From a virus, in the IMG/VR virus record IMGVR_UViG_3300020185_000033, positions 11,830 to 75,829 of that record: 64,000 bases of DNA, one strand, 5' to 3'. Under the pieces are notes generated by a model. That model searched no databases, had not been told where the DNA came from, and worked only from the letters and a program-made list of their open reading frames with translations. Each line of letters begins with the position of its first letter. Positions within the stretch are counted from its first letter, which is position 1. Below, in pieces: positions 58,048 through 64,000 of the stretch. The position numbers and the translations under genes were made by a program.

Positions 58048-58923
58048 ATGACTACGACAGGCAGAAAAGTAAATTATCTTAACAATAAAGATATTTTAAA
58101 AGAAATTCACAAAAGTAAACTTAGTTACTGTTATGTAACTGACGACAAATACATACAGCAAGACATTATCCTAGATGATGTTACACAAATTAACAAAACA
58201 ACAATCAAACAGGCTCAAATAAACAAAGCACATGGCATGTCTAGGGCGGCATACGAAAAAGCCGTTAAAGAAGGCGATTGGGTTAAGAAGCCTAAGCAAA
58301 AAGAATTTGCGGTTGATCCTGATAGTTTAGCAGTCGATGATTTAGTTTTTAGAGTTATGGGCTACGATCATATACCGCTAGAGCCAGGCAGGAAGAAAAC
58401 AACAAAGACAATTGCTGATACAAAGGCAAAAGTAAACTTCCCACCGTTTAAGCATTATATTTTAGATAGTGCTGGAGCAAATCCCAGGGAAGTCGTAAGA
58501 AGTCATTGGGTAGGTGGTCTACACAATGGACACTTCAGTTGTACACACGGTACAATTACAAACGAACTAGGCAAGATGTTTATGAAACTTGTTGAGCGTT
58601 ACAGTCAGAGAGGTAACTGGAGAGGTTACACTTATGTTGATGAGATGCGTGGACAAGCACTTGTGCAACTTGCACAAATTGGTTTGCAGTTTAACGAAGC
58701 AAAATCTGATAACCCGTTTGCATATTATACTGCTACGGTTAATAACAGTTTCACAAGAGTGTTAAACTTAGAAAAACGCAACCAGACAATCAGAGACGAC
58801 ATTTTAATTGAGCAAGGACATTTACCAAGTTACGGCAGACAGATTGCACACGAAAACTCTTTAAGAGAAATGAGAGAAAGTGCAGAAGCTGAATTGGAAA
58901 ATACCGGTAATACAACTAAGTAG
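58048..58923 (+). CDS. Late-transcription sigma factor (T4 gp55-like)
   Basis: NYLNNKDILKEI, NWRGYTYVDEMRGQA and FNEAKSDNPFAYYT. It sits directly before gp47/gp46, as in T4-like phages. GAGGAG RBS. Confidence 0.85.
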   Translation: MTTTGRKVNYLNNKDILKEIHKSKLSYCYVTDDKYIQQDIILDDVTQINKTTIKQAQINKAHGMSRAAYEKAVKEGDWVKKPKQKEFAVDPDSLAVDDLVFRVMGYDHIPLEPGRKKTTKTIADTKAKVNFPPFKHYILDSAGANPREVVRSHWVGGLHNGHFSCTHGTITNELGKMFMKLVERYSQRGNWRGYTYVDEMRGQALVQLAQIGLQFNEAKSDNPFAYYTATVNNSFTRVLNLEKRNQTIRDDILIEQGHLPSYGRQIAHENSLREMRESAEAELENTGNTTK

Positions 58924-58931
58924 GTAATCAT

Positions 58932-59951
58932 ATGGCAAACCTTTTTGAAAGGGCCGCATGTTTTACAGATATACATTACGGCTTAAAACAAAACAGTAGA
59001 CAGCATCTTAAAGACTGTCACAACTATGTAGATTGGTTTATAGAAGAAGCAAAAGCACGAGACTGTGAGACTTGTATCTTCTTAGGTGATTGGCATCATC
59101 ACAGAGCAAGTATTAATATTGCTACTATGAATGCTACAATTAAAGATCTTAAAAAGTTAAACGACAACTTTAGTAAAGTTTATTTTATTACTGGTAATCA
59201 CGATTTATACTACAGAGAAAAACGTGACCTTAACAGTGTAGAGTTTGCTAGAGACTTAGAAAACTTTGTAATGGTAGATGAACACTTCTGTGAAGACGGT
59301 GTTGCTATCATTCCATGGTTAGTTGGCGACGAGCACAAAACACTTAACAAGTTAGATTGTAAGTATATGTTTGGTCATTTTGAGTTACCGTACTTTAAAA
59401 TGAATGCAATGGTAGAAATGCCAGACCATGGCGGTGTAAAAGCATCTGACTTGTCTAATCCAGAATATGTGTTTAGTGGTCACTTCCATAAACGTCAATA
59501 CAAAGGTAACATACATTATATAGGTAATGCATTTCCACACAACTATGCTGATGCACAAGACAACGAGCGTGGTGCTATGTTCTTAGAATGGGACAAAGAA
59601 CCTGTGTATGTCAATTGGGATCAGTGTCCTAAGTATGTAACTATGGGACTTAGAGAACTACTCGAAGCACCAGATAAATTTTTAGATGATACAACACATG
59701 CTAGGATTAAACTAGATGTTGCTATCAGTTACGAAGAAGCAAACTTCTTAAGAGAAACATTTGCTGAAAAATATAATGTTAGAGAACTTCAACTTATTGT
59801 TGTAAAAGAAGAAGATGAGGTTTTTGACGGAGAAGAAATTAACTTTGAGAGTGTTGACCAAATTGTAATTAGTCAATTAGAAACAATTGAGAGTCAACTG
59901 GTAGACACGAATAGATTAATTGAGATTTACAGGGATATAGAAATTGCTTAA
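58932..59951 (+). CDS. Recombination endonuclease subunit (T4 gp47 / Mre11 / SbcD-like)
   Basis: Metallophosphoesterase motifs DIH, LGDWHH, GNHD, GHFE and SGHFH. Confidence 0.93.
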   Translation: MANLFERAACFTDIHYGLKQNSRQHLKDCHNYVDWFIEEAKARDCETCIFLGDWHHHRASINIATMNATIKDLKKLNDNFSKVYFITGNHDLYYREKRDLNSVEFARDLENFVMVDEHFCEDGVAIIPWLVGDEHKTLNKLDCKYMFGHFELPYFKMNAMVEMPDHGGVKASDLSNPEYVFSGHFHKRQYKGNIHYIGNAFPHNYADAQDNERGAMFLEWDKEPVYVNWDQCPKYVTMGLRELLEAPDKFLDDTTHARIKLDVAISYEEANFLRETFAEKYNVRELQLIVVKEEDEVFDGEEINFESVDQIVISQLETIESQLVDTNRLIEIYRDIEIA

Positions 59952-61716
59952 AATTAAAAATGTAACAGCAAAGAACTTTATGAGTGTAGGCAACAACTTA
60001 CAAGCAGTAACGTTTGACACCGATTCGTTAACATTGGTATTAGGTCATAACTTAGACCTCGGTGGCGATGGTAGTAGAAACGGTACAGGTAAGACTACAA
60101 TTATTAATGCACTCAGTTATGCACTTTATGGCGAAGCATTAACAAACATCAGAAAGGATAATCTTATTAACAAAACAAATGGTAAAGGAATGATTACCAC
60201 TGTTGATTTTGAGATTAAAGGAACAGAGTATCGCATTGAGCGTGGCAGGCGACCTAACGTACTAAAGTTTTATATCGACGGCAATGAATCAGCTGACAAT
60301 GAACAACAAGGTGACATGCGTGAGACACAAAAAGATATCGAACGTGTGATTGGATTCCCACATAATATGTTTAAGCATTTAATTGCATTAAACACTTACA
60401 CCGAACCGTTCCTCAGTATGAAAACAAATGACCAACGAGACATGATTGAGCAGTTGTTGGGTATTACTGAAATTAGTGCCAAGGCAGATGTGCTAAAAGA
60501 GTTGTTAAAACAAACCAAAGACAATATCAAAGAAGAAGAATTGCGTATACAAGCAGTTACCAATGCTAATAAACGTGTAGAGTCTAGCATTAAGGATATC
60601 GAAAGCCGGAGCAAAGCATGGGCTAGGAATAAAGGAGACAAAGTAAACGGACTGCAAACTAGTTTGGACACATTAGAGCATACTAATATTAAAGAAGAAC
60701 TGGACAGTCATAGAAAAATTATAGATATAAACGAAAAGCAAAATAAACTTACTGCACTTAAAACAGACTTGTCGACTCGAACAACGTCGATGAATCGTAG
60801 TGACAGTAAACTTGTTACGTTGGAGGCTAACTTAGAAAGTGCAAAGTCCGGTGTATGTCCTACATGCGAACAAGGTACGGCACATTTAGACACACATGAA
60901 AAATACACAGCGGACTTAGAAGAAGAAATTAAAGAAGAACAACGGTACAACGTTGAGTTAGTGGACAAGATTAGAGATATTACTAGCGGTATTAAACAGC
61001 TGGGCAATATTCCAGAAACACCAATTACTTTTTACAACAACATGGAAGATGCTTTACAGCATAAACATAATGTAGATACATTGCAAGAACAAATCGAAGA
61101 AAAGATTAAAGAAGAAAACCCGTATGTCGAACAAGTTGACCAACTACGCCAGACAGGCATCGAAGAGGTTAGTTACGAACTTATCAATGACTACACTAGC
61201 CTAAAAGAGCATCAAGAGTTTTTACACAAACTGTTAACAAGCAAAGACAGTTTTATTAGAAAGAAAATTATTGACCAAAACTTACAGTACTTGAATTACA
61301 GACTAGGGCATTACTTAGAAAAGTTAGGCTTACCACATGATGTTAAATTTAACAGTGATTTATCTGTTGACATCACGGAGTATGGCAGAGACTTGGATTT
61401 TGATAATTTAAGCCGAGGAGAGCGTAATAGACTTATACTTGGTATGAGTTGGGCATTTAGAGACATATATGAAAGTCTCAACCAACCAATGAATTTGATG
61501 TGCATAGACGAACTGGTAGACAGTGGCATGGATACCACTGGTGTTGAAAATGCATTGGCAGTTCTTAAGAAGATGGGAAGAGAATCAAATAAAAATGTGT
61601 TCTTAATTTCACACAAAGAGGAACTACAAGGGCGTGTTAATAACGTTCTTTATGTTGTTAAAGAAGGAGGATTCACTAGTTACAGTAATGACATAGAAAT
61701 CCTCGATGAGACTTAA
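59944..61716 (+). CDS. Recombination ATPase subunit (T4 gp46 / Rad50 / SbcC-like)
   Basis: Walker A NGTGKTT, coiled coils with a CPTC zinc hook, signature LSRGE, Walker B/D-loop CIDELVDSGMD and H-loop ISH. Confidence 0.95.
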   Translation: MLKIKNVTAKNFMSVGNNLQAVTFDTDSLTLVLGHNLDLGGDGSRNGTGKTTIINALSYALYGEALTNIRKDNLINKTNGKGMITTVDFEIKGTEYRIERGRRPNVLKFYIDGNESADNEQQGDMRETQKDIERVIGFPHNMFKHLIALNTYTEPFLSMKTNDQRDMIEQLLGITEISAKADVLKELLKQTKDNIKEEELRIQAVTNANKRVESSIKDIESRSKAWARNKGDKVNGLQTSLDTLEHTNIKEELDSHRKIIDINEKQNKLTALKTDLSTRTTSMNRSDSKLVTLEANLESAKSGVCPTCEQGTAHLDTHEKYTADLEEEIKEEQRYNVELVDKIRDITSGIKQLGNIPETPITFYNNMEDALQHKHNVDTLQEQIEEKIKEENPYVEQVDQLRQTGIEEVSYELINDYTSLKEHQEFLHKLLTSKDSFIRKKIIDQNLQYLNYRLGHYLEKLGLPHDVKFNSDLSVDITEYGRDLDFDNLSRGERNRLILGMSWAFRDIYESLNQPMNLMCIDELVDSGMDTTGVENALAVLKKMGRESNKNVFLISHKEELQGRVNNVLYVVKEGGFTSYSNDIEILDET

Positions 61717-62141
61717 TGAGTGCATGGACATATAAAGGTAAATTAGTAGACACACTTCCGGATGATTGTGAAGCATTTGTGTACTTGATTACAAACACAA
61801 CAAACGATAAGAAATACATTGGTAAAAAACTTGCAAAGTTTAAAACAACCAAGCCGCCCTTAAAGGGAAGAAAGAATAAACGCCGAGGATTTAAAGAAAG
61901 CGACTGGCGTACTTATTGGGGTAGCTCGGATCACTTAAACGAGGACGTAATTACTTTAGGCGAACACAAGTTTACTAGAGAAATACTACACTATTGCCCA
62001 ACTAGAGGTATTGCAAGTTACATTGAAGCACAAGAACAATTTGAACGAAATGTTCTCTTGACAGACGAATATTATAATGGTATAATAAACGTTAGAGTAG
62101 GCGGTTCACAAATCCTTAAGGAACATTTTAAAAAGATATAA
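61716..62141 (+). CDS. Small stand-alone GIY-YIG family endonuclease
   Basis: AFVYLITN...KKYIGKK, ESDWRTYWGSS, FTREIL, SYIEAQEQ (Glu) and YYN (Asn). There is no separate DNA-binding tail. It is coupled TAATG to gp46. Confidence 0.82.
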   Translation: MSAWTYKGKLVDTLPDDCEAFVYLITNTTNDKKYIGKKLAKFKTTKPPLKGRKNKRRGFKESDWRTYWGSSDHLNEDVITLGEHKFTREILHYCPTRGIASYIEAQEQFERNVLLTDEYYNGIINVRVGGSQILKEHFKKI

Positions 62142-62162
62142 CTATATATCGAACATGGCACA

Positions 62163-62209
62163 CATAGACACCCAGTCACGCTAATAAAAACATCACAGAC
62201 ACCAAGTCA
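62163..62209 (+). repeat. Two 16-nt direct repeats, 31-nt period
   Basis: catagacacccagtca (62163-62178) and cacagacaccaagtca (62194-62209) are 14/16 identical. Confidence 0.75.
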
Positions 62210-62222
62210 ACTACATAGGTTC

Positions 62223-62530
62223 TACACCACCCCGGCGAGGCTAAAATTCGCTGTCCTTGACAAACCGGTAATCCCGGTGCGAGATACTGGACTGTAGACG
62301 GCAAGATACAAACACGATACAGTATTAAAATGATTCAGGCAATGAGAAAAAGCAACCTGAAAGTTAATATAGTTGAACTCGACAAGACTATATTAATTTC
62401 CGTGAGGTCGAAAGACAGTGACGGTAGTGTATGGGGAGAAAAGGCTCACCGCTTCCTAGTAGCACCCGAGTTTGAGATGGCGATGCTCATCTTGATGACA
62501 TTTTTTTTATTCACCCGGAGACGGGTGAAT
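62223..62530 (+). ncRNA. Putative large structured non-coding RNA of unrecognised class
   Basis: About nine consecutive stems, many with plus-strand G-U pairs, GAAA and GAGA tetraloops, and a 7-bp loop-to-downstream pseudoknot (gaactcg 62375-62381 with cgagttt 62467-62473). The region is richer in G+C than other intergenic gaps. Confidence 0.65.
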
Positions 62531-62572
62531 TATGGCTTAACTTTCTTGATAACTTCTTAACTTACTAAAAAA

Positions 62573-62636
62573 TTACTACAAGAACTGATATGAATGAAAT
62601 GAATGAAGTTAGCAGTAGTAAAGATACGAAGTATCT
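62573..62636 (+). other. Twin hairpins with GAA triloops and tandem G-A pairs (ssDNA-type structure)
   Basis: ttactac...aact-GA-(t)at-GA-at-GAA-at-GA-at-GA-agtt...gtagtaa is followed immediately by agatac-GAA-gtatct. Confidence 0.6.
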
Positions 62637-63153
62637 ATAAAGTGTTTAAGAATGCAACAGTATCTGTGTAAGACAAACGTAAATTAACTGTGTAAAGATA
62701 AAAGTCTTTCTCCAAACTATGTTTGGATGCTCCATGGAACTTGGTAACGTCTAATATACACACCTCACCTGGATTTAACATTTTGTTGTGTTCGCTGTCT
62801 TTGTGGATTATTTCTAATGGAGAATCTTCTAGGTTAAACATAATATTGGTTTTTCTAGTTAACGGATTGTTCCATCCCATTAACCAGTCCTGATGCAACT
62901 TTACCATTGATCCTTGCTTTACTGTTTCTATTGCCACACTGTGTTCCGCGATGTCTAAAGGCAATGGTGTAGCATTTATAATTTGTTGTTGTAGGCTTTG
63001 GGGCATGTCGCGGAGTAAAAATATGTGTTGATCCATATCCACACGATCCTCGACCACGTTGTACGCACTTGCTTCTTTGAACTCTGTGATAGGTTTTACG
63101 AGCTGGCGCATTGCAACAACATCATAATCCCATTTTAAAACTGTGCTAAACAT
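62635..63153 (-). CDS. Cupin/2OG-Fe(II) oxygenase-like protein
   Basis: VKLHQD (HxD), TNIMFNL and PGEVCILDVTKFHGA (distal His). Confidence 0.65.
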   Translation of the reverse strand: MFSTVLKWDYDVVAMRQLVKPITEFKEASAYNVVEDRVDMDQHIFLLRDMPQSLQQQIINATPLPLDIAEHSVAIETVKQGSMVKLHQDWLMGWNNPLTRKTNIMFNLEDSPLEIIHKDSEHNKMLNPGEVCILDVTKFHGASKHSLEKDFYLYTVNLRLSYTDTVAFLNTL

Positions 63154-63575
63154 TCGCTATAGTGTTTCCTATTATTAATTGTTACAAACTCCGCAATAGT
63201 GCTACTTTGACGGTTGTCACAGCCATGTTCTTTAGTAGTATCAAGCACAAAGAAATCACCTGGCTGTATGGTATAGTCCTCTGTTACATCATTATTAGTG
63301 TGCTGTATAATAGCAGGATGGTCACCCACATTAACTAGTATGTTACTGCGTCTTCCGCCAATATCGGTGTGTAATGCTAGATAATCACCGGGTCTAACAA
63401 ACTCCAACCCTATGAAATGTTCGGGCTCTATATTGTATTTTTTAATGAAATCTGTGGGCATTCTGTCCCATAATTGGCTCGCAGAGTACAGTTTTTGGTG
63501 TATCTTCTTTAGTTGTACCACACTGCTTAACTGCTTATCTTGACGTAAAAACGCCACAAAATCATCTATATCCAT
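63135..63575 (-). CDS. Cupin/2OG-Fe(II) oxygenase-like protein
   Basis: LALHTD, SNILVNV and PGDFFVLDTTKEHGC. Paralog of the adjacent gene. The start at ATG 63575 lies 5 nt after GTTAAATA. Confidence 0.65.
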   Translation of the reverse strand: MDIDDFVAFLRQDKQLSSVVQLKKIHQKLYSASQLWDRMPTDFIKKYNIEPEHFIGLEFVRPGDYLALHTDIGGRRSNILVNVGDHPAIIQHTNNDVTEDYTIQPGDFFVLDTTKEHGCDNRQSSTIAEFVTINNRKHYSECLAQF

Positions 63576-63619
63576 ACTTGTATTTAACAAAAAAGATGCC
63601 AATATTTGTGGTAAAAAGG

Positions 63620-63647
63620 TTGACTTTGCCACAAAAACCAGTATAAT
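63620..63647 (+). promoter_or_regulatory. Sigma70-type (early) promoter inside an inverted repeat
   Basis: TTGACT-N16-TATAAT. Arms tttgtggtaaa (63605-63615) and tttgccacaaa (63625-63635) enclose the -35 box. Confidence 0.75.
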
Positions 63648-63682
63648 AGTGTGTATATTAAATAAAAAAGGTAGGAGTTTTT

Positions 63683-64000
63683 ATGTTTAAATTAGAAGAT
63701 ATTGTTAAAATTGCAGGTGAAACTGTTCGTAAACAGCGTTTTGGTATGGCATCTATGAACGATGATCACAAAACATTCACCGGTGATGTACTTTATACGT
63801 CACAAAAAGGCAACAACTTTTCAAGTAGCATCGAGGAAAAGTTCCAAGATACTGCTCAAGTAGATGGACTTACTGTTTGGAAGTCAAACGGTGAAGTTCC
63901 TTTTACAGATATGTTGTTAGATTTTGTTCAAATTGGTGCTATTACTTTTGAACAGGCTGAATTTTCAGCTATTCAAAAGAACAAAGATGCAGAAGCATCG
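63683..64000 (+). CDS. Hypothetical early protein (runs off the right edge of the window)
   Basis: AGGAG, then ATG 63683: MFKLEDIVKIAGETVRKQRFG...WKSNGEVPFTDMLLDF..., open to the end of the window. Confidence 0.75.
   Translation, partial: MFKLEDIVKIAGETVRKQRFGMASMNDDHKTFTGDVLYTSQKGNNFSSSIEEKFQDTAQVDGLTVWKSNGEVPFTDMLLDFVQIGAITFEQAEFSAIQKNKDAEAS

What the first reader, a model, noticed from the sequence alone, without database searches (positions are those of the whole stretch)
61716..62636. Candidate new system: small GIY-YIG nuclease + direct repeats + large structured RNA + folded-ssDNA hairpins, next to gp46/gp47
Seen: a compact 141-aa GIY-YIG nuclease with no DNA-binding tail is translationally coupled to the Rad50-like gene. 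It is followed by the largest non-coding gap in the window (about 490 nt), which has three parts in order: two 16-nt repeats, an RNA-style structured block (G-U pairs, GNRA loops, pseudoknot) and a DNA-style structured block (GAA triloops, tandem G-A pairs). The gap lies where plus- and minus-strand transcription converge. Established: compact nucleases with an adjacent large ncRNA define RNA-guided families (IscB/omegaRNA, TnpB/reRNA); RNA-then-DNA structured tracts occur in retron msr/msd and in RNA-primed origins (ColE1 RNA II, T4 R-loop origins). Inference: this is one functional unit, either a ribonucleoprotein GIY-YIG nuclease or an RNA-primed/nick-initiated replication or recombination origin. 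I recognise no named family with this layout.
Basis: partly seen in the sequence, partly recalled or inferred. Interest (0 to 1): 0.92.

Follow-up and report, generated by a model that had tools for sequence, protein, structure and literature searches.

The report
Twin-box phage RNA with nuclease
The gene-free stretch behind a small DNA-cutting-enzyme gene of this uncultured marine giant T4-like phage encodes a real, roughly 480-base, doubly knotted RNA that matches no catalogued family, is never found without that enzyme gene beside it, and still has no known job.

Summary
Window 61716-62141 encodes a 141-aa nuclease consisting only of a SegE-type GIY-YIG domain. The 493-nt gap behind it (62142-62634) is a conserved structured RNA on the + strand. 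It has 78 nested pairs, 48 of them with compensatory changes, plus two covarying pseudoknots. It matches no Rfam family. RNA-library contigs from four studies lie on it.

The RNA and the nuclease gene form a tight two-gene module. In this family, 111 of 111 RNA loci carry the nuclease just upstream. In a sister family the order is reversed, and 55 of 55 loci carry the nuclease just downstream. All 71 informative gp46 relatives carry the pair.

The reverse does not hold. Nucleases 72-79% identical occur without any such RNA, for example in the complete Melnitz phage genome. I found no guide-like segment and no nuclease/box co-variation.

Two 7-10-nt "twin boxes" (62490-62499 and 62544-62553) change between phages yet stay identical to each other. 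I found no complementary partner for them, so they remain unexplained.

My best reading is that a homing-type nuclease and a stand-alone RNA are exchanged together by gene conversion. RNA guidance and an RNA-primed origin are not supported, but neither is excluded.

This scan has already found the same RNA kind on other genomes. The permuted gene order, as far as I can tell from those notes, and the transcript evidence are the additions here.

The parts
59944..61716 (+). gp46 / Rad50-like recombination nuclease subunit (context). gp47/Mre11-like lies at 58932-59951 and a gp55-like late sigma factor at 58048-58923.
   Evidence: Pfam AAA_23 and SMC_N for gp46, Metallophos for gp47. phrog_12791 late sigma factor. 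The nearest isolates are Pseudomonas jumbo phages of the PA5oct type, 52% aa identity.
61716..62141 (+). 141-aa GIY-YIG nuclease made of the catalytic domain only (SegE-type, phrog_447). Its start codon overlaps the gp46 stop codon.
   Evidence: PF19835 at 118 bits, residues 4-124. phrog_447, E 1.6e-35. The motifs FVYLITN and KKYIGKK and conserved R, E and N residues are invariant in 10 diverse relatives. More than 580 relatives exist in IMG/VR.
62142..62214 (+). Variable 5' leader with short direct repeats. Here AGACACCNAGTCA occurs twice (62166-62178, 62197-62209) and GGCAC once. Relatives carry 1-4 GGCAC units.
   Evidence: the repeat finder family D2. Leaders of 68 distinct relatives are listed. 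The pattern occurs nowhere else in the window without mismatches. RNA-library contigs begin at 62157 and 62159.
62157..62636 (+). The whole twin-box RNA, about 480 nt. The ends are approximate: the 5' limit comes from contig starts, the 3' limit from the end of conservation.
   Evidence: nhmmer profile hits of 220-425 bits in 27 + 117 loci. RNA-library contigs of four studies lie on 62157-62497. No Rfam match.
62221..62298 (+). Domain I, a three-way junction: closing helix 62223-62226/62293-62296, hairpin 62234-62238/62248-62252, and a bulged hairpin 62256-62283 with a CCGG/CCGG tip.
   Evidence: Helices 1-4. Pair types include CG:29/UA:12/AU:2 and CG:34/GC:11.
62305..62470 (+). Domain II: hairpins 62305-62309/62322-62326, 62335-62339/62356-62360 (with the invariant loop AAAAAGCAAC), the 14-bp hairpin 62361-62399, and the receptor-like helix 62422-62438/62452-62468.
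   Evidence: Helices 5-11. 13 of the 14 pairs of the long hairpin change on both sides.
62378..62476 (+). Pseudoknot 1: the loop of the long hairpin (62378-62382) pairs with 62472-62476.
   Evidence: 93.5% of cells paired, all 5 pairs with two-sided changes, 24-53% when slid. It first appeared as a top mutual-information signal.
62402..62449 (+). Pseudoknot 2: GUGAG at 62402-62406 pairs with CUCAC at 62445-62449, in the loop of the receptor-like helix.
   Evidence: 100% of cells paired, 4 of 5 pairs with two-sided changes, 21-52% when slid.
62476..62499 (+). Twin module 1, ending in box 1 (TCTTGATGAC, 62490-62499).
   Evidence: Identity couplings with module 2 are the strongest signals in the alignment of 83 RNAs. 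Examples: 62487~62542 (TT36/AA33/CC12) and 62492~62546 (AA55/GG15/TT13), identity 0.90-1.00.
62510..62529 (+). G+C-rich hairpin between the boxes (UUCACCC-GGAGAC-GGGUGAA), preceded by a U8 run in this phage.
   Evidence: Helix 12, with 4 of 8 pairs changing on both sides. Position 62513 also covaries with 62419.
62531..62553 (+). Twin module 2, ending in box 2 (TCTTGATAAC, 62544-62553).
   Evidence: These are the only two copies of TCTTGATRAC on either strand in the whole 75.8-kb record.
62573..62636 (+). 3' domain: a long G/A-rich hairpin (62573-62620) and a terminal hairpin with a C-GAA-G loop (62622-62636). The domain abuts the stop codon of the convergent gene at 62635-63153.
   Evidence: Helices 13 and 14, with 7 of 7 and 3 of 6 pairs changing on both sides. 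Conservation ends here. This hairpin type is not a general gene-end signal in the window.

Best explanation
The locus is a two-gene module carried by uncultured marine jumbo T4-like phages beside their gp47/gp46 recombination genes.

(1) The first gene is a compact, domain-only GIY-YIG nuclease of the SegE / phrog_447 family.

(2) The second, on the same strand, is a gene for a roughly 480-nt, doubly pseudoknotted non-coding RNA, the 'twin-box RNA'. It accumulates as an RNA.

The steps shown here are these:
- the RNA fold;
- its presence in RNA libraries;
- the strict adjacency of the two genes in either order;
- their joint inversion relative to gp46;
- their exchange between phage lineages.

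The inferred steps are as follows. The nuclease acts as a homing-type, double-strand-break-making enzyme. Its breaks are repaired from a co-infecting relative, so the nuclease gene and the neighbouring RNA gene are copied together by gene conversion. This keeps the pair together and shuffles it among lineages. The RNA is a passenger or dependent partner, not a guide. It works as a folded RNA in its own right. Its two identical boxes most likely each pair with the same external nucleic acid, which has not been found.
For: RNA reality.
- 98.2% of cells pair, against about 39% in slid controls, and 48 of 78 pairs are compensatory.
- Two pseudoknots covary.
- The 76-aa ORF in the gap is frameshifted in a close relative.
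- G-U wobbles put the fold on the + strand.

Expression. Short contigs of metatranscriptome libraries from four studies lie on 62157-62497 with 1-7 differences each.

Linkage.
- 111 of 111 RNA loci found by an RNA motif have the nuclease upstream on the same strand.
- A sister RNA family has the reverse order, RNA then nuclease, in 55 of 55 loci.
- A model built from that sister family also hits the downstream RNAs of the L016 cluster.
- All 71 informative loci among the 80 nearest gp46 relatives carry the pair: 52 co-oriented with gp46 and 19 inverted as a unit.

Mobility.
- Pairwise distances of the nuclease correlate poorly with those of gp46 (Spearman 0.17). RNA against gp46 gives 0.45, and RNA against nuclease 0.32.
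- Phages 15-25% apart in gp46 can share nuclease and RNA that are 99% identical. Phages under 5% apart in gp46 can differ by 19% and 16%.
- Nucleases stay 72-79% identical across phages whose gp46 is about 50% identical or not syntenic at all.

Not a guide.
- The nuclease occurs without the RNA in the complete Melnitz genome.
- The nuclease sequence shows no RNA-specific features.
- Boxes and nuclease do not co-vary.
Against: - No empty (nuclease-less) allele and no RNA-only locus was found among 71 + 166 loci. This is unusual for a purely selfish homing gene and suggests that both genes are kept by selection, possibly because they work together.
- The nuclease has no DNA-binding domain, so site-specific homing is unproven, and no target site is known.
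- Same-strand adjacency in both gene orders is also what a ribonucleoprotein pair would show.
- The identity coupling of the twin boxes and the family-specific leader repeats is not explained by this model.
- The expression evidence is assembled contigs only. RNA libraries can hold DNA, and contigs show neither strand nor ends.
Confidence: 0.5

Rival explanations
1. Ribonucleoprotein partnership. The domain-only GIY-YIG nuclease binds the twin-box RNA. The RNA then supplies targeting, with the boxes pairing with DNA, or controls the enzyme as an inhibitor, self-immunity factor or scaffold for a nuclease dimer on the two identical modules.
For: - The nuclease lacks any DNA-binding domain.
- The RNA is never found without the nuclease, in either gene order, and always on the same strand: 166 of 166 loci.
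- This linkage survives RNA divergence beyond what sequence search can detect.
- The boxes evolve fast yet stay identical to each other, as two sites read by one partner would.
- No nuclease-less allele occurs in 71 gp46 relatives.
Against: - Nucleases 72-79% identical, with the same invariant residues and the same basic loop, exist without the RNA.
- The RNA diverges far faster than the protein. The two RNA families barely align while their proteins are about 75% identical.
- Box variants rank 43rd to 150th of 183 RNA columns for coupling to protein columns.
- No complement of the boxes or the leader repeats occurs in the flanks or in the 75.8-kb record.
- Box variant does not follow insertion context.
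Confidence: 0.2
2. Replication or recombination origin. The transcript folds and forms a persistent hybrid or primer, as ColE1 RNA II and the T4 oriE/oriF R-loops do. The leader repeats and twin boxes would act as iteron-like or primer-relocation sites next to the recombination genes.
For: - Family-specific short direct repeats flank the fold. They are GGCAC or AGAC..GTCA units here and CTAATA units in the sister family.
- Identical boxes bracket a hairpin and a T-run.
- The position beside gp46/gp47 is constant.
- Identical direct repeats are what primer-translocation systems use (my own knowledge of hepadnavirus DR1/DR2, not tested here).
Against: - GC and AT skew only mirror the direction of transcription, with no extra inflection.
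- The locus lies where transcription converges.
- The tetraloop-receptor-type architecture and the two pseudoknots point to a stably folded RNA rather than an RNA-DNA hybrid.
- The unit is inverted in 19 of 71 relatives without loss.
- No initiator gene was recognised nearby.
Confidence: 0.08
3. The RNA is a resident phage gene and the nuclease is a homing endonuclease that targets it. The RNA gene would be the landing pad, as tRNA genes are for T4 segB, and would have been invaded independently on either side.
For: - The gene order differs between RNA families.
- RNA divergence follows gp46 more closely than the nuclease does: 0.45 against 0.17.
- Members of the nuclease family sit elsewhere in other phages, for example beside ribonucleotide reductase in Melnitz.
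Against: - A landing-pad gene should often be found un-invaded, yet 0 of 166 RNA loci lack the nuclease.
- The RNA is itself exchanged horizontally together with the nuclease. The minimum RNA distance is 0.007 between phages that are 15-25% apart in gp46.
Confidence: 0.12

Closest known systems
GOLLD, ROOL and OLE: large 'ornate' bacterial and phage RNAs (Rfam RF01998, RF03087; cryo-EM study PMC12286853)
   Same: A large (over 400 nt), multi-domain non-coding RNA with long-range tertiary features. It is carried by phages, was found by comparative analysis of environmental sequence, and has no known function.
   Different: No sequence or structure match to any of them. This RNA is obligatorily next to a small GIY-YIG nuclease gene and carries two identity-coupled boxes. 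Its oligomeric state is unknown.
Free-standing GIY-YIG homing endonuclease genes of T-even phages (segA-G; SegE gives the Pfam model PF19835)
   Same: The same catalytic domain family. It is an intergenic insertion in a T4-like genome, translationally coupled to the gene in front, and its phylogeny disagrees with that of the flanking genes.
   Different: Only the catalytic domain is present, with no C-terminal DNA-binding part. The gene is fixed in all 71 relatives examined rather than sporadic. It is always paired with a large RNA gene.
HEARO / omega-RNA with IscB, and TnpB with its omega (re)RNA: nuclease-associated structured RNAs
   Same: A compact nuclease gene sits directly beside a conserved structured RNA of several hundred nucleotides on the same strand, upstream in some lineages and downstream in others.
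   Different: - The nuclease fold is different: GIY-YIG, not RuvC/HNH.
- No transposon ends are present.
- No guide segment was found.
- Close nuclease relatives live without the RNA.
- No Rfam HEARO match.
T4 mobA plus the gene 60 bypass element (a homing endonuclease with a non-coding passenger)
   Same: A homing-type nuclease gene and a neighbouring structured non-coding element are inherited as one cassette. In gene 60, too, two identical short sequences bracket a hairpin about 50 nt long (my own knowledge, not tested here).
   Different: The element here is not inside a coding gene. It is ten times larger, and its boxes are 7-10 nt long rather than one codon.
Polynucleobacter-1 (RF01718) and Methylobacterium-1 (RF01712) motifs. 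Earlier agents of this scan named these as catalogued fragments of related freshwater RNAs.
   Same: Orphan motifs from environmental sequence (PMC2864571). Earlier notes say they form part of freshwater relatives of this RNA.
   Different: Neither motif matches this window or any of 25 related marine loci, even at E up to 1-10. I could not confirm the link for this family.

Membership tests
GIY-YIG nuclease superfamily, SegE-type domain (PF19835) / phrog_447 | Profile match above the curated cut-off over the whole catalytic domain | tested here: met
   118.2 bits against a cut-off of 25, residues 4-124 of 141. phrog_447 E 1.6e-35.
GIY-YIG nuclease superfamily, SegE-type domain (PF19835) / phrog_447 | GIY and YIG motifs plus conserved Arg, Glu and Asn | tested here: met
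   V22-Y23-L24, Y34-I35-G36, R56, R88-E89, E104, E107 and N121 are invariant or nearly so in 10 diverse relatives. Which residues are catalytic is inferred by analogy with I-TevI.
Free-standing homing endonuclease (Seg type) | C-terminal DNA-binding domain tethered to the catalytic domain | tested here: not met
   The protein ends 17 residues after the Pfam domain. All relatives are 140-153 aa.
Free-standing homing endonuclease (Seg type) | Sporadic presence, with empty alleles in close relatives | tested here: not met
   0 empty sites among the 71 informative loci of the 80 nearest gp46 relatives.
Free-standing homing endonuclease (Seg type) | Phylogeny discordant with flanking genes (horizontal spread) | tested here: met
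   Spearman correlation of nuclease against gp46 distances is 0.17. Near-identical nucleases occur in phages 15-25% apart in gp46.
Free-standing homing endonuclease (Seg type) | Cleaves the nuclease-less allele and is copied into it | not testable with these tools
   This needs enzyme assays or phage crosses.
RNA-guided nucleases (IscB / TnpB / Cas9-like OMEGA systems) | RuvC and/or HNH nuclease fold | tested here: not met
   Only GIY-YIG families match.
RNA-guided nucleases (IscB / TnpB / Cas9-like OMEGA systems) | Variable guide segment next to a conserved scaffold that matches target or flanking DNA | tested here: not met
   The variable parts (leader repeats, boxes) have no complement in the flanks, the window or the 75.8-kb record. 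Box type is independent of insertion context.
RNA-guided nucleases (IscB / TnpB / Cas9-like OMEGA systems) | The nuclease is not found without its RNA | tested here: not met
   The complete Melnitz genome has a 75%-identical nuclease but no RNA by BLAST or by two covariance models. In Melnitz and L013-type loci the neighbouring DNA is coding. A very divergent RNA elsewhere cannot be fully excluded.
Any Rfam 15 family (including group I intron RF00028, HEARO, GOLLD, ROOL, Polynucleobacter-1) | Covariance-model match | tested here: not met
   No relevant hit at E up to 10 on 62050-62660 or at E up to 1 on 61000-64000. None at gathering score on the window or on 20 loci. None at E up to 1 on 5 divergent loci.
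Group I intron with a GIY-YIG homing endonuclease | Interrupts a host gene whose exons flank the RNA | tested here: not met
   gp46 aligns to its last residues in all relatives, whatever lies behind it. Conservation stops at both ends of the module.
Retron msr/msd | Adjacent reverse transcriptase gene | tested here: not met
   No RT family is found in the eight neighbouring ORFs.
RNA-primed origin (ColE1 RNA II, T4 oriE/oriF type) | Strand-composition switch, iterons and an initiator, R-loop formation | tested here: inconclusive
   Direct repeats are present. There is no skew inflection beyond that due to transcription direction, and no initiator gene was recognised. R-loop formation cannot be tested here.
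'Twin-box RNA' (informal family noted earlier in this scan) | Two short boxes that differ between phages but are identical within each RNA and bracket a G+C-rich hairpin, beside a small GIY-YIG gene, in a pseudoknotted fold | tested here: met
   Identity couplings of 0.90-1.00 at six column pairs. The same architecture with other box sequences appears in the L040 and L059 loci and in the upstream family. Pseudoknots are supported.

The most novel reading that the evidence does not exclude
The twin-box RNA and the domain-less GIY-YIG nuclease form a ribonucleoprotein. The two identical, fast-evolving boxes would set what the enzyme cuts or spares, for instance self versus non-self alleles of competing phages. 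This would be a nucleic-acid-programmed GIY-YIG nuclease with no known precedent.
Probability: 0.12. Interest if true: 0.95.

Novelty: new variant of a known kind. Interest (0 to 1): 0.72.

Why it matters
- Large, intricately folded RNAs are rare, and most known ones turned out to be ribozymes or machines.
- This one is abundant in ocean jumbo phages and appears in metatranscriptome libraries.
- Unlike GOLLD or ROOL, it has a fixed protein-gene partner. That partner gives a direct experimental handle.
- The identity-coupled twin boxes are a kind of covariation that standard RNA-structure tools do not look for. They imply an unseen partner or a copying mechanism.
- If the RNA does act with the nuclease, it would extend RNA-linked DNA cutting to the GIY-YIG fold. 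If it does not, it is a clear case of a non-coding passenger spread by a homing nuclease.
- Either answer is testable with two synthetic genes.

Tried and rejected
- **Single-sequence folding.** z-scores are only -1.8 and -1.5, so folding alone is not informative.
- **Sigma-70 promoter.** A perfect TTGACA-17-TATAAT lies at 62058-62086 inside the nuclease gene. It is not conserved in relatives, so it is chance or lineage-specific.
- **ORF76 (62330-62560) as a gene.** Rejected, because it is frameshifted in L202.
- **Cis partner for the boxes.** None appears in mutual-information tables, within -700 to +600 nt of each locus, in the window, or in the 75.8-kb record. The boxes are palindromic only in some variants, so box-box pairing is not general.
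- **Box or leader resemblance to 16S rRNA.** I noticed 9-mer matches by eye. About 2.7 such matches are expected by chance for a 470-nt RNA against a 1.5-kb rRNA (my own arithmetic), so I dropped the idea.
- **Nuclease/box co-variation.** None beyond background.
- **GC skew as an origin signal.** None.
- **C-GAA-G hairpins as a general gene-end signal of this phage.** Not so.
- **Bacterial and archaeal genomes.** The RNA motif gave three hits without any profile similarity, so they are chance.
- **Isolate phages.** No record matches the RNA.
- **Generic box-hairpin-box detector.** It was too strict to classify divergent clusters. The L036-type RNAs remain linked only by eye.
- **Model R1.** It does not reach the L016, L036 or L025 clusters.
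- **Empty site among close relatives.** Searching with the downstream gene found only three loci, all occupied.
- **Read laying.** No contig of the four RNA libraries lies on 62498-63800. In three of them none lies on gp46 or the nuclease either. With contigs at depth 2-12 this shows nothing about transcript ends or relative levels.
- **Link to Polynucleobacter-1 or Methylobacterium-1.** Claimed in earlier notes, but not reproducible for this marine family.

Full report
**What is at the locus**

The window is part of a 75.8-kb IMG/VR virus fragment. Its gp46 is closest, at 52% identity, to Pseudomonas jumbo phages of the PA5oct type.

The + strand carries, in order:
- a gp55-like late sigma factor gene;
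- gp47 (Mre11-like) and gp46 (Rad50-like);
- a 141-aa ORF at 61716-62141, whose ATG overlaps the gp46 stop codon.

That ORF is a GIY-YIG nuclease and nothing more. Pfam SegE_GIY-YIG covers residues 4-124 at 118 bits. The best phage family is phrog_447, a 148-residue profile that is often mislabelled 'NAD synthetase'.

Behind the ORF lies the largest ORF-free stretch of the window, 62142-62634. After it come convergent minus-strand genes.

**The gap is an RNA gene**

Folding the single sequence says little, with z of -1.8 and -1.5. Comparison decides the matter.

- More than 580 nuclease relatives exist in IMG/VR. In 27 of the best 80, the 490 nt behind the nuclease are 70-81% identical to the window.
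- On a 46-sequence alignment, RNAalifold finds 72 pairs, 44 of them compensatory.
- A slightly extended structure of 78 pairs is paired in 98.2% of cells, against about 39% when partners are slid. 48 pairs change on both sides, against 11-16 when slid. No shuffle out of 500 reaches the observed value.
- Mutual information pointed to two pseudoknots, and pair counts confirm both: 62378-62382 with 62472-62476 and 62402-62406 with 62445-62449.
- GNRA-capped hairpins and a UAUGG...CCUAG element resembling the 11-nt tetraloop receptor are visible in the alignments.
- G-U wobbles place the fold on the + strand.
- The only ORF in the gap (76 aa) is frameshifted in a relative whose nuclease is 94% identical.
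- No Rfam family matches the window or 25 related loci at any threshold tried.
- Short contigs from metatranscriptome libraries of four different studies lie on 62157-62497. This is modest evidence that the RNA is made.

**Linkage to the nuclease**

- A motif scan for the RNA itself returned 118 loci. All 111 with enough upstream sequence have the nuclease on the same strand. It usually lies 50-85 nt in front of the conserved core, and in 12 loci a further gene sits between them.
- Centring the search on gp46 instead, all 71 informative loci among its 80 nearest relatives (67-99% identity) carry nuclease plus RNA within about 2 kb. There are three arrangements: directly after gp46, after an inserted gene (a methyltransferase in L205, or an unknown 263-aa ORF), or with the pair inverted as a unit.
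- The key result came from the nuclease loci that seemed to lack the RNA. In ten of them a related twin-box RNA lies directly upstream of the nuclease on the same strand.
- A motif of that sister family retrieves 57 loci. All 55 informative ones have the nuclease 220-310 nt downstream, with two showing an insertion.
- A covariance model built from the sister family also detects the downstream RNAs of the L016 cluster.
- So the gene order is permuted between lineages, while adjacency and strand are kept.

**The reverse dependence does not hold**

- The complete genome of Methylophilales phage Melnitz encodes a 75%-identical nuclease, next to ribonucleotide reductase. It has no such RNA by BLAST or by either covariance model, and the surrounding DNA is coding.
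- L013-type loci look the same.
- Ten nucleases from the RNA-downstream, RNA-upstream and RNA-less contexts are 72-79% identical. They share their invariant residues and their basic loop.
- The two RNA families, by contrast, are barely alignable.

**Twin boxes**

The strongest couplings in an 83-sequence alignment are not Watson-Crick. Six column pairs between 62476-62499 and 62531-62553 are identical to each other in 90-100% of sequences while varying between phages. Box forms include TCTTGAT, TCATGAT, ACATGAT, TCGTGAT, TCGAGAT and ATATGAT.

The sister family shows the same behaviour with GAACAAGT, TGACAAGT and TATCAAGT. The L040 and L059 loci show it with ACATGAT and AGATAATG.

I found no complementary partner in the RNA, the flanks, the window or the record. 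The boxes do not co-vary with the nuclease.

The 5' leader also holds family-specific short repeats. Both features remain unexplained.

**Evolution of the module**

Within the main family, pairwise distances of the nuclease hardly follow those of gp46 (Spearman 0.17). The RNA is intermediate: 0.45 against gp46 and 0.32 against the nuclease.

Phages 15-25% apart in gp46 can share 99%-identical nuclease and RNA. Near-identical gp46 genes can sit next to pairs that differ by 16-19%. The pair is therefore exchanged between lineages, as expected for gene conversion driven by a homing-type nuclease with co-conversion of its neighbour.

**Weighing the readings**

- *Mobile nuclease plus stand-alone RNA.* This best fits the asymmetry: the RNA is never alone, while the nuclease sometimes is. 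It also fits the rate mismatch, the absence of any guide and the mosaic phylogeny. It does not explain why no empty or RNA-only allele exists, nor the boxes.
- *Ribonucleoprotein.* It explains the perfect linkage in both orders but conflicts with the RNA-less nucleases and the lack of co-variation.
- *Origin.* It has only the direct repeats in its favour.
- *Landing pad.* It predicts un-invaded RNA genes, and none were seen.

I put these at roughly 0.5, 0.2, 0.08 and 0.12.

**Relation to earlier work**

The papers I searched describe nothing like this. The nearest published kind is the large ornate RNAs GOLLD, ROOL and OLE (PMC12286853).

Earlier agents of this scan found the same kind of RNA on other genomes and coined the name 'twin-box'. 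I re-derived the boxes and the knots here. I could not reproduce their link to Rfam motifs for this marine family. What this report adds is the permuted gene order (as far as I can tell from those short notes), the two 100% linkage counts, the gp46-centred census, the distance analysis and the RNA-library contigs.

Noticed in passing
L033, L047, L049, L050, L055, L058, L063, L075, L076, L079 (about 2440-2990 of each locus); L284-L340: A sister twin-box RNA family lies upstream of the same nuclease, so the gene order is reversed. It has an almost invariant 25-mer, GAGGGAATCGYCAACCGACCTCGCC, and a leader of 3-5 CTAATA repeats.
   Followed up: yes
window 62058-62086 (+): A perfect extended sigma-70 promoter consensus (TTGACA, 17 nt, TG-n-TATAAT) lies inside the 3' end of the nuclease gene. 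It is not conserved in relatives, where the same codons read differently.
   Followed up: yes
window 62635-63153 (-) and 63135-63632 (-): Two adjacent minus-strand ORFs of 172 and 165 aa are distant paralogues of each other (27-32% identity in tblastn cross-hits). They have no Pfam or PHROG family.
   Followed up: partly
L205 5273-5914: In a relative with 99%-identical gp46, a 213-aa SAM-methyltransferase-like gene is inserted between gp46 and the nuclease. Other relatives carry an unknown 263-aa ORF at that place (L236 5267-6061, L247 5110-5901). The gp46 3' flank is an insertion hot spot.
   Followed up: partly
window 62419, 62513, 62526: Position 62419 is always identical to 62526, and both are complementary to 62513. 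The 5' arm of the hairpin between the boxes could alternatively pair with GUGA at 62418-62421, which hints at a conformational switch. Only two states are seen.
   Followed up: no
L013 about 2236-2600: Melnitz-like loci without the RNA keep a short stretch, GGGTGATTATGGCTTTGCC, behind the nuclease. It resembles the 3' arm of the inter-box hairpin plus the start of module 2. It may be a remnant.
   Followed up: no
L027 4399-4471: A tRNA gene lies about 1.5 kb downstream of the nuclease in one RNA-less locus (Rfam, 58.6 bits).
   Followed up: no
window 58048-58923 (+): A gp55-like late sigma factor gene lies directly in front of gp47 and gp46, the same neighbourhood as in T4.
   Followed up: no
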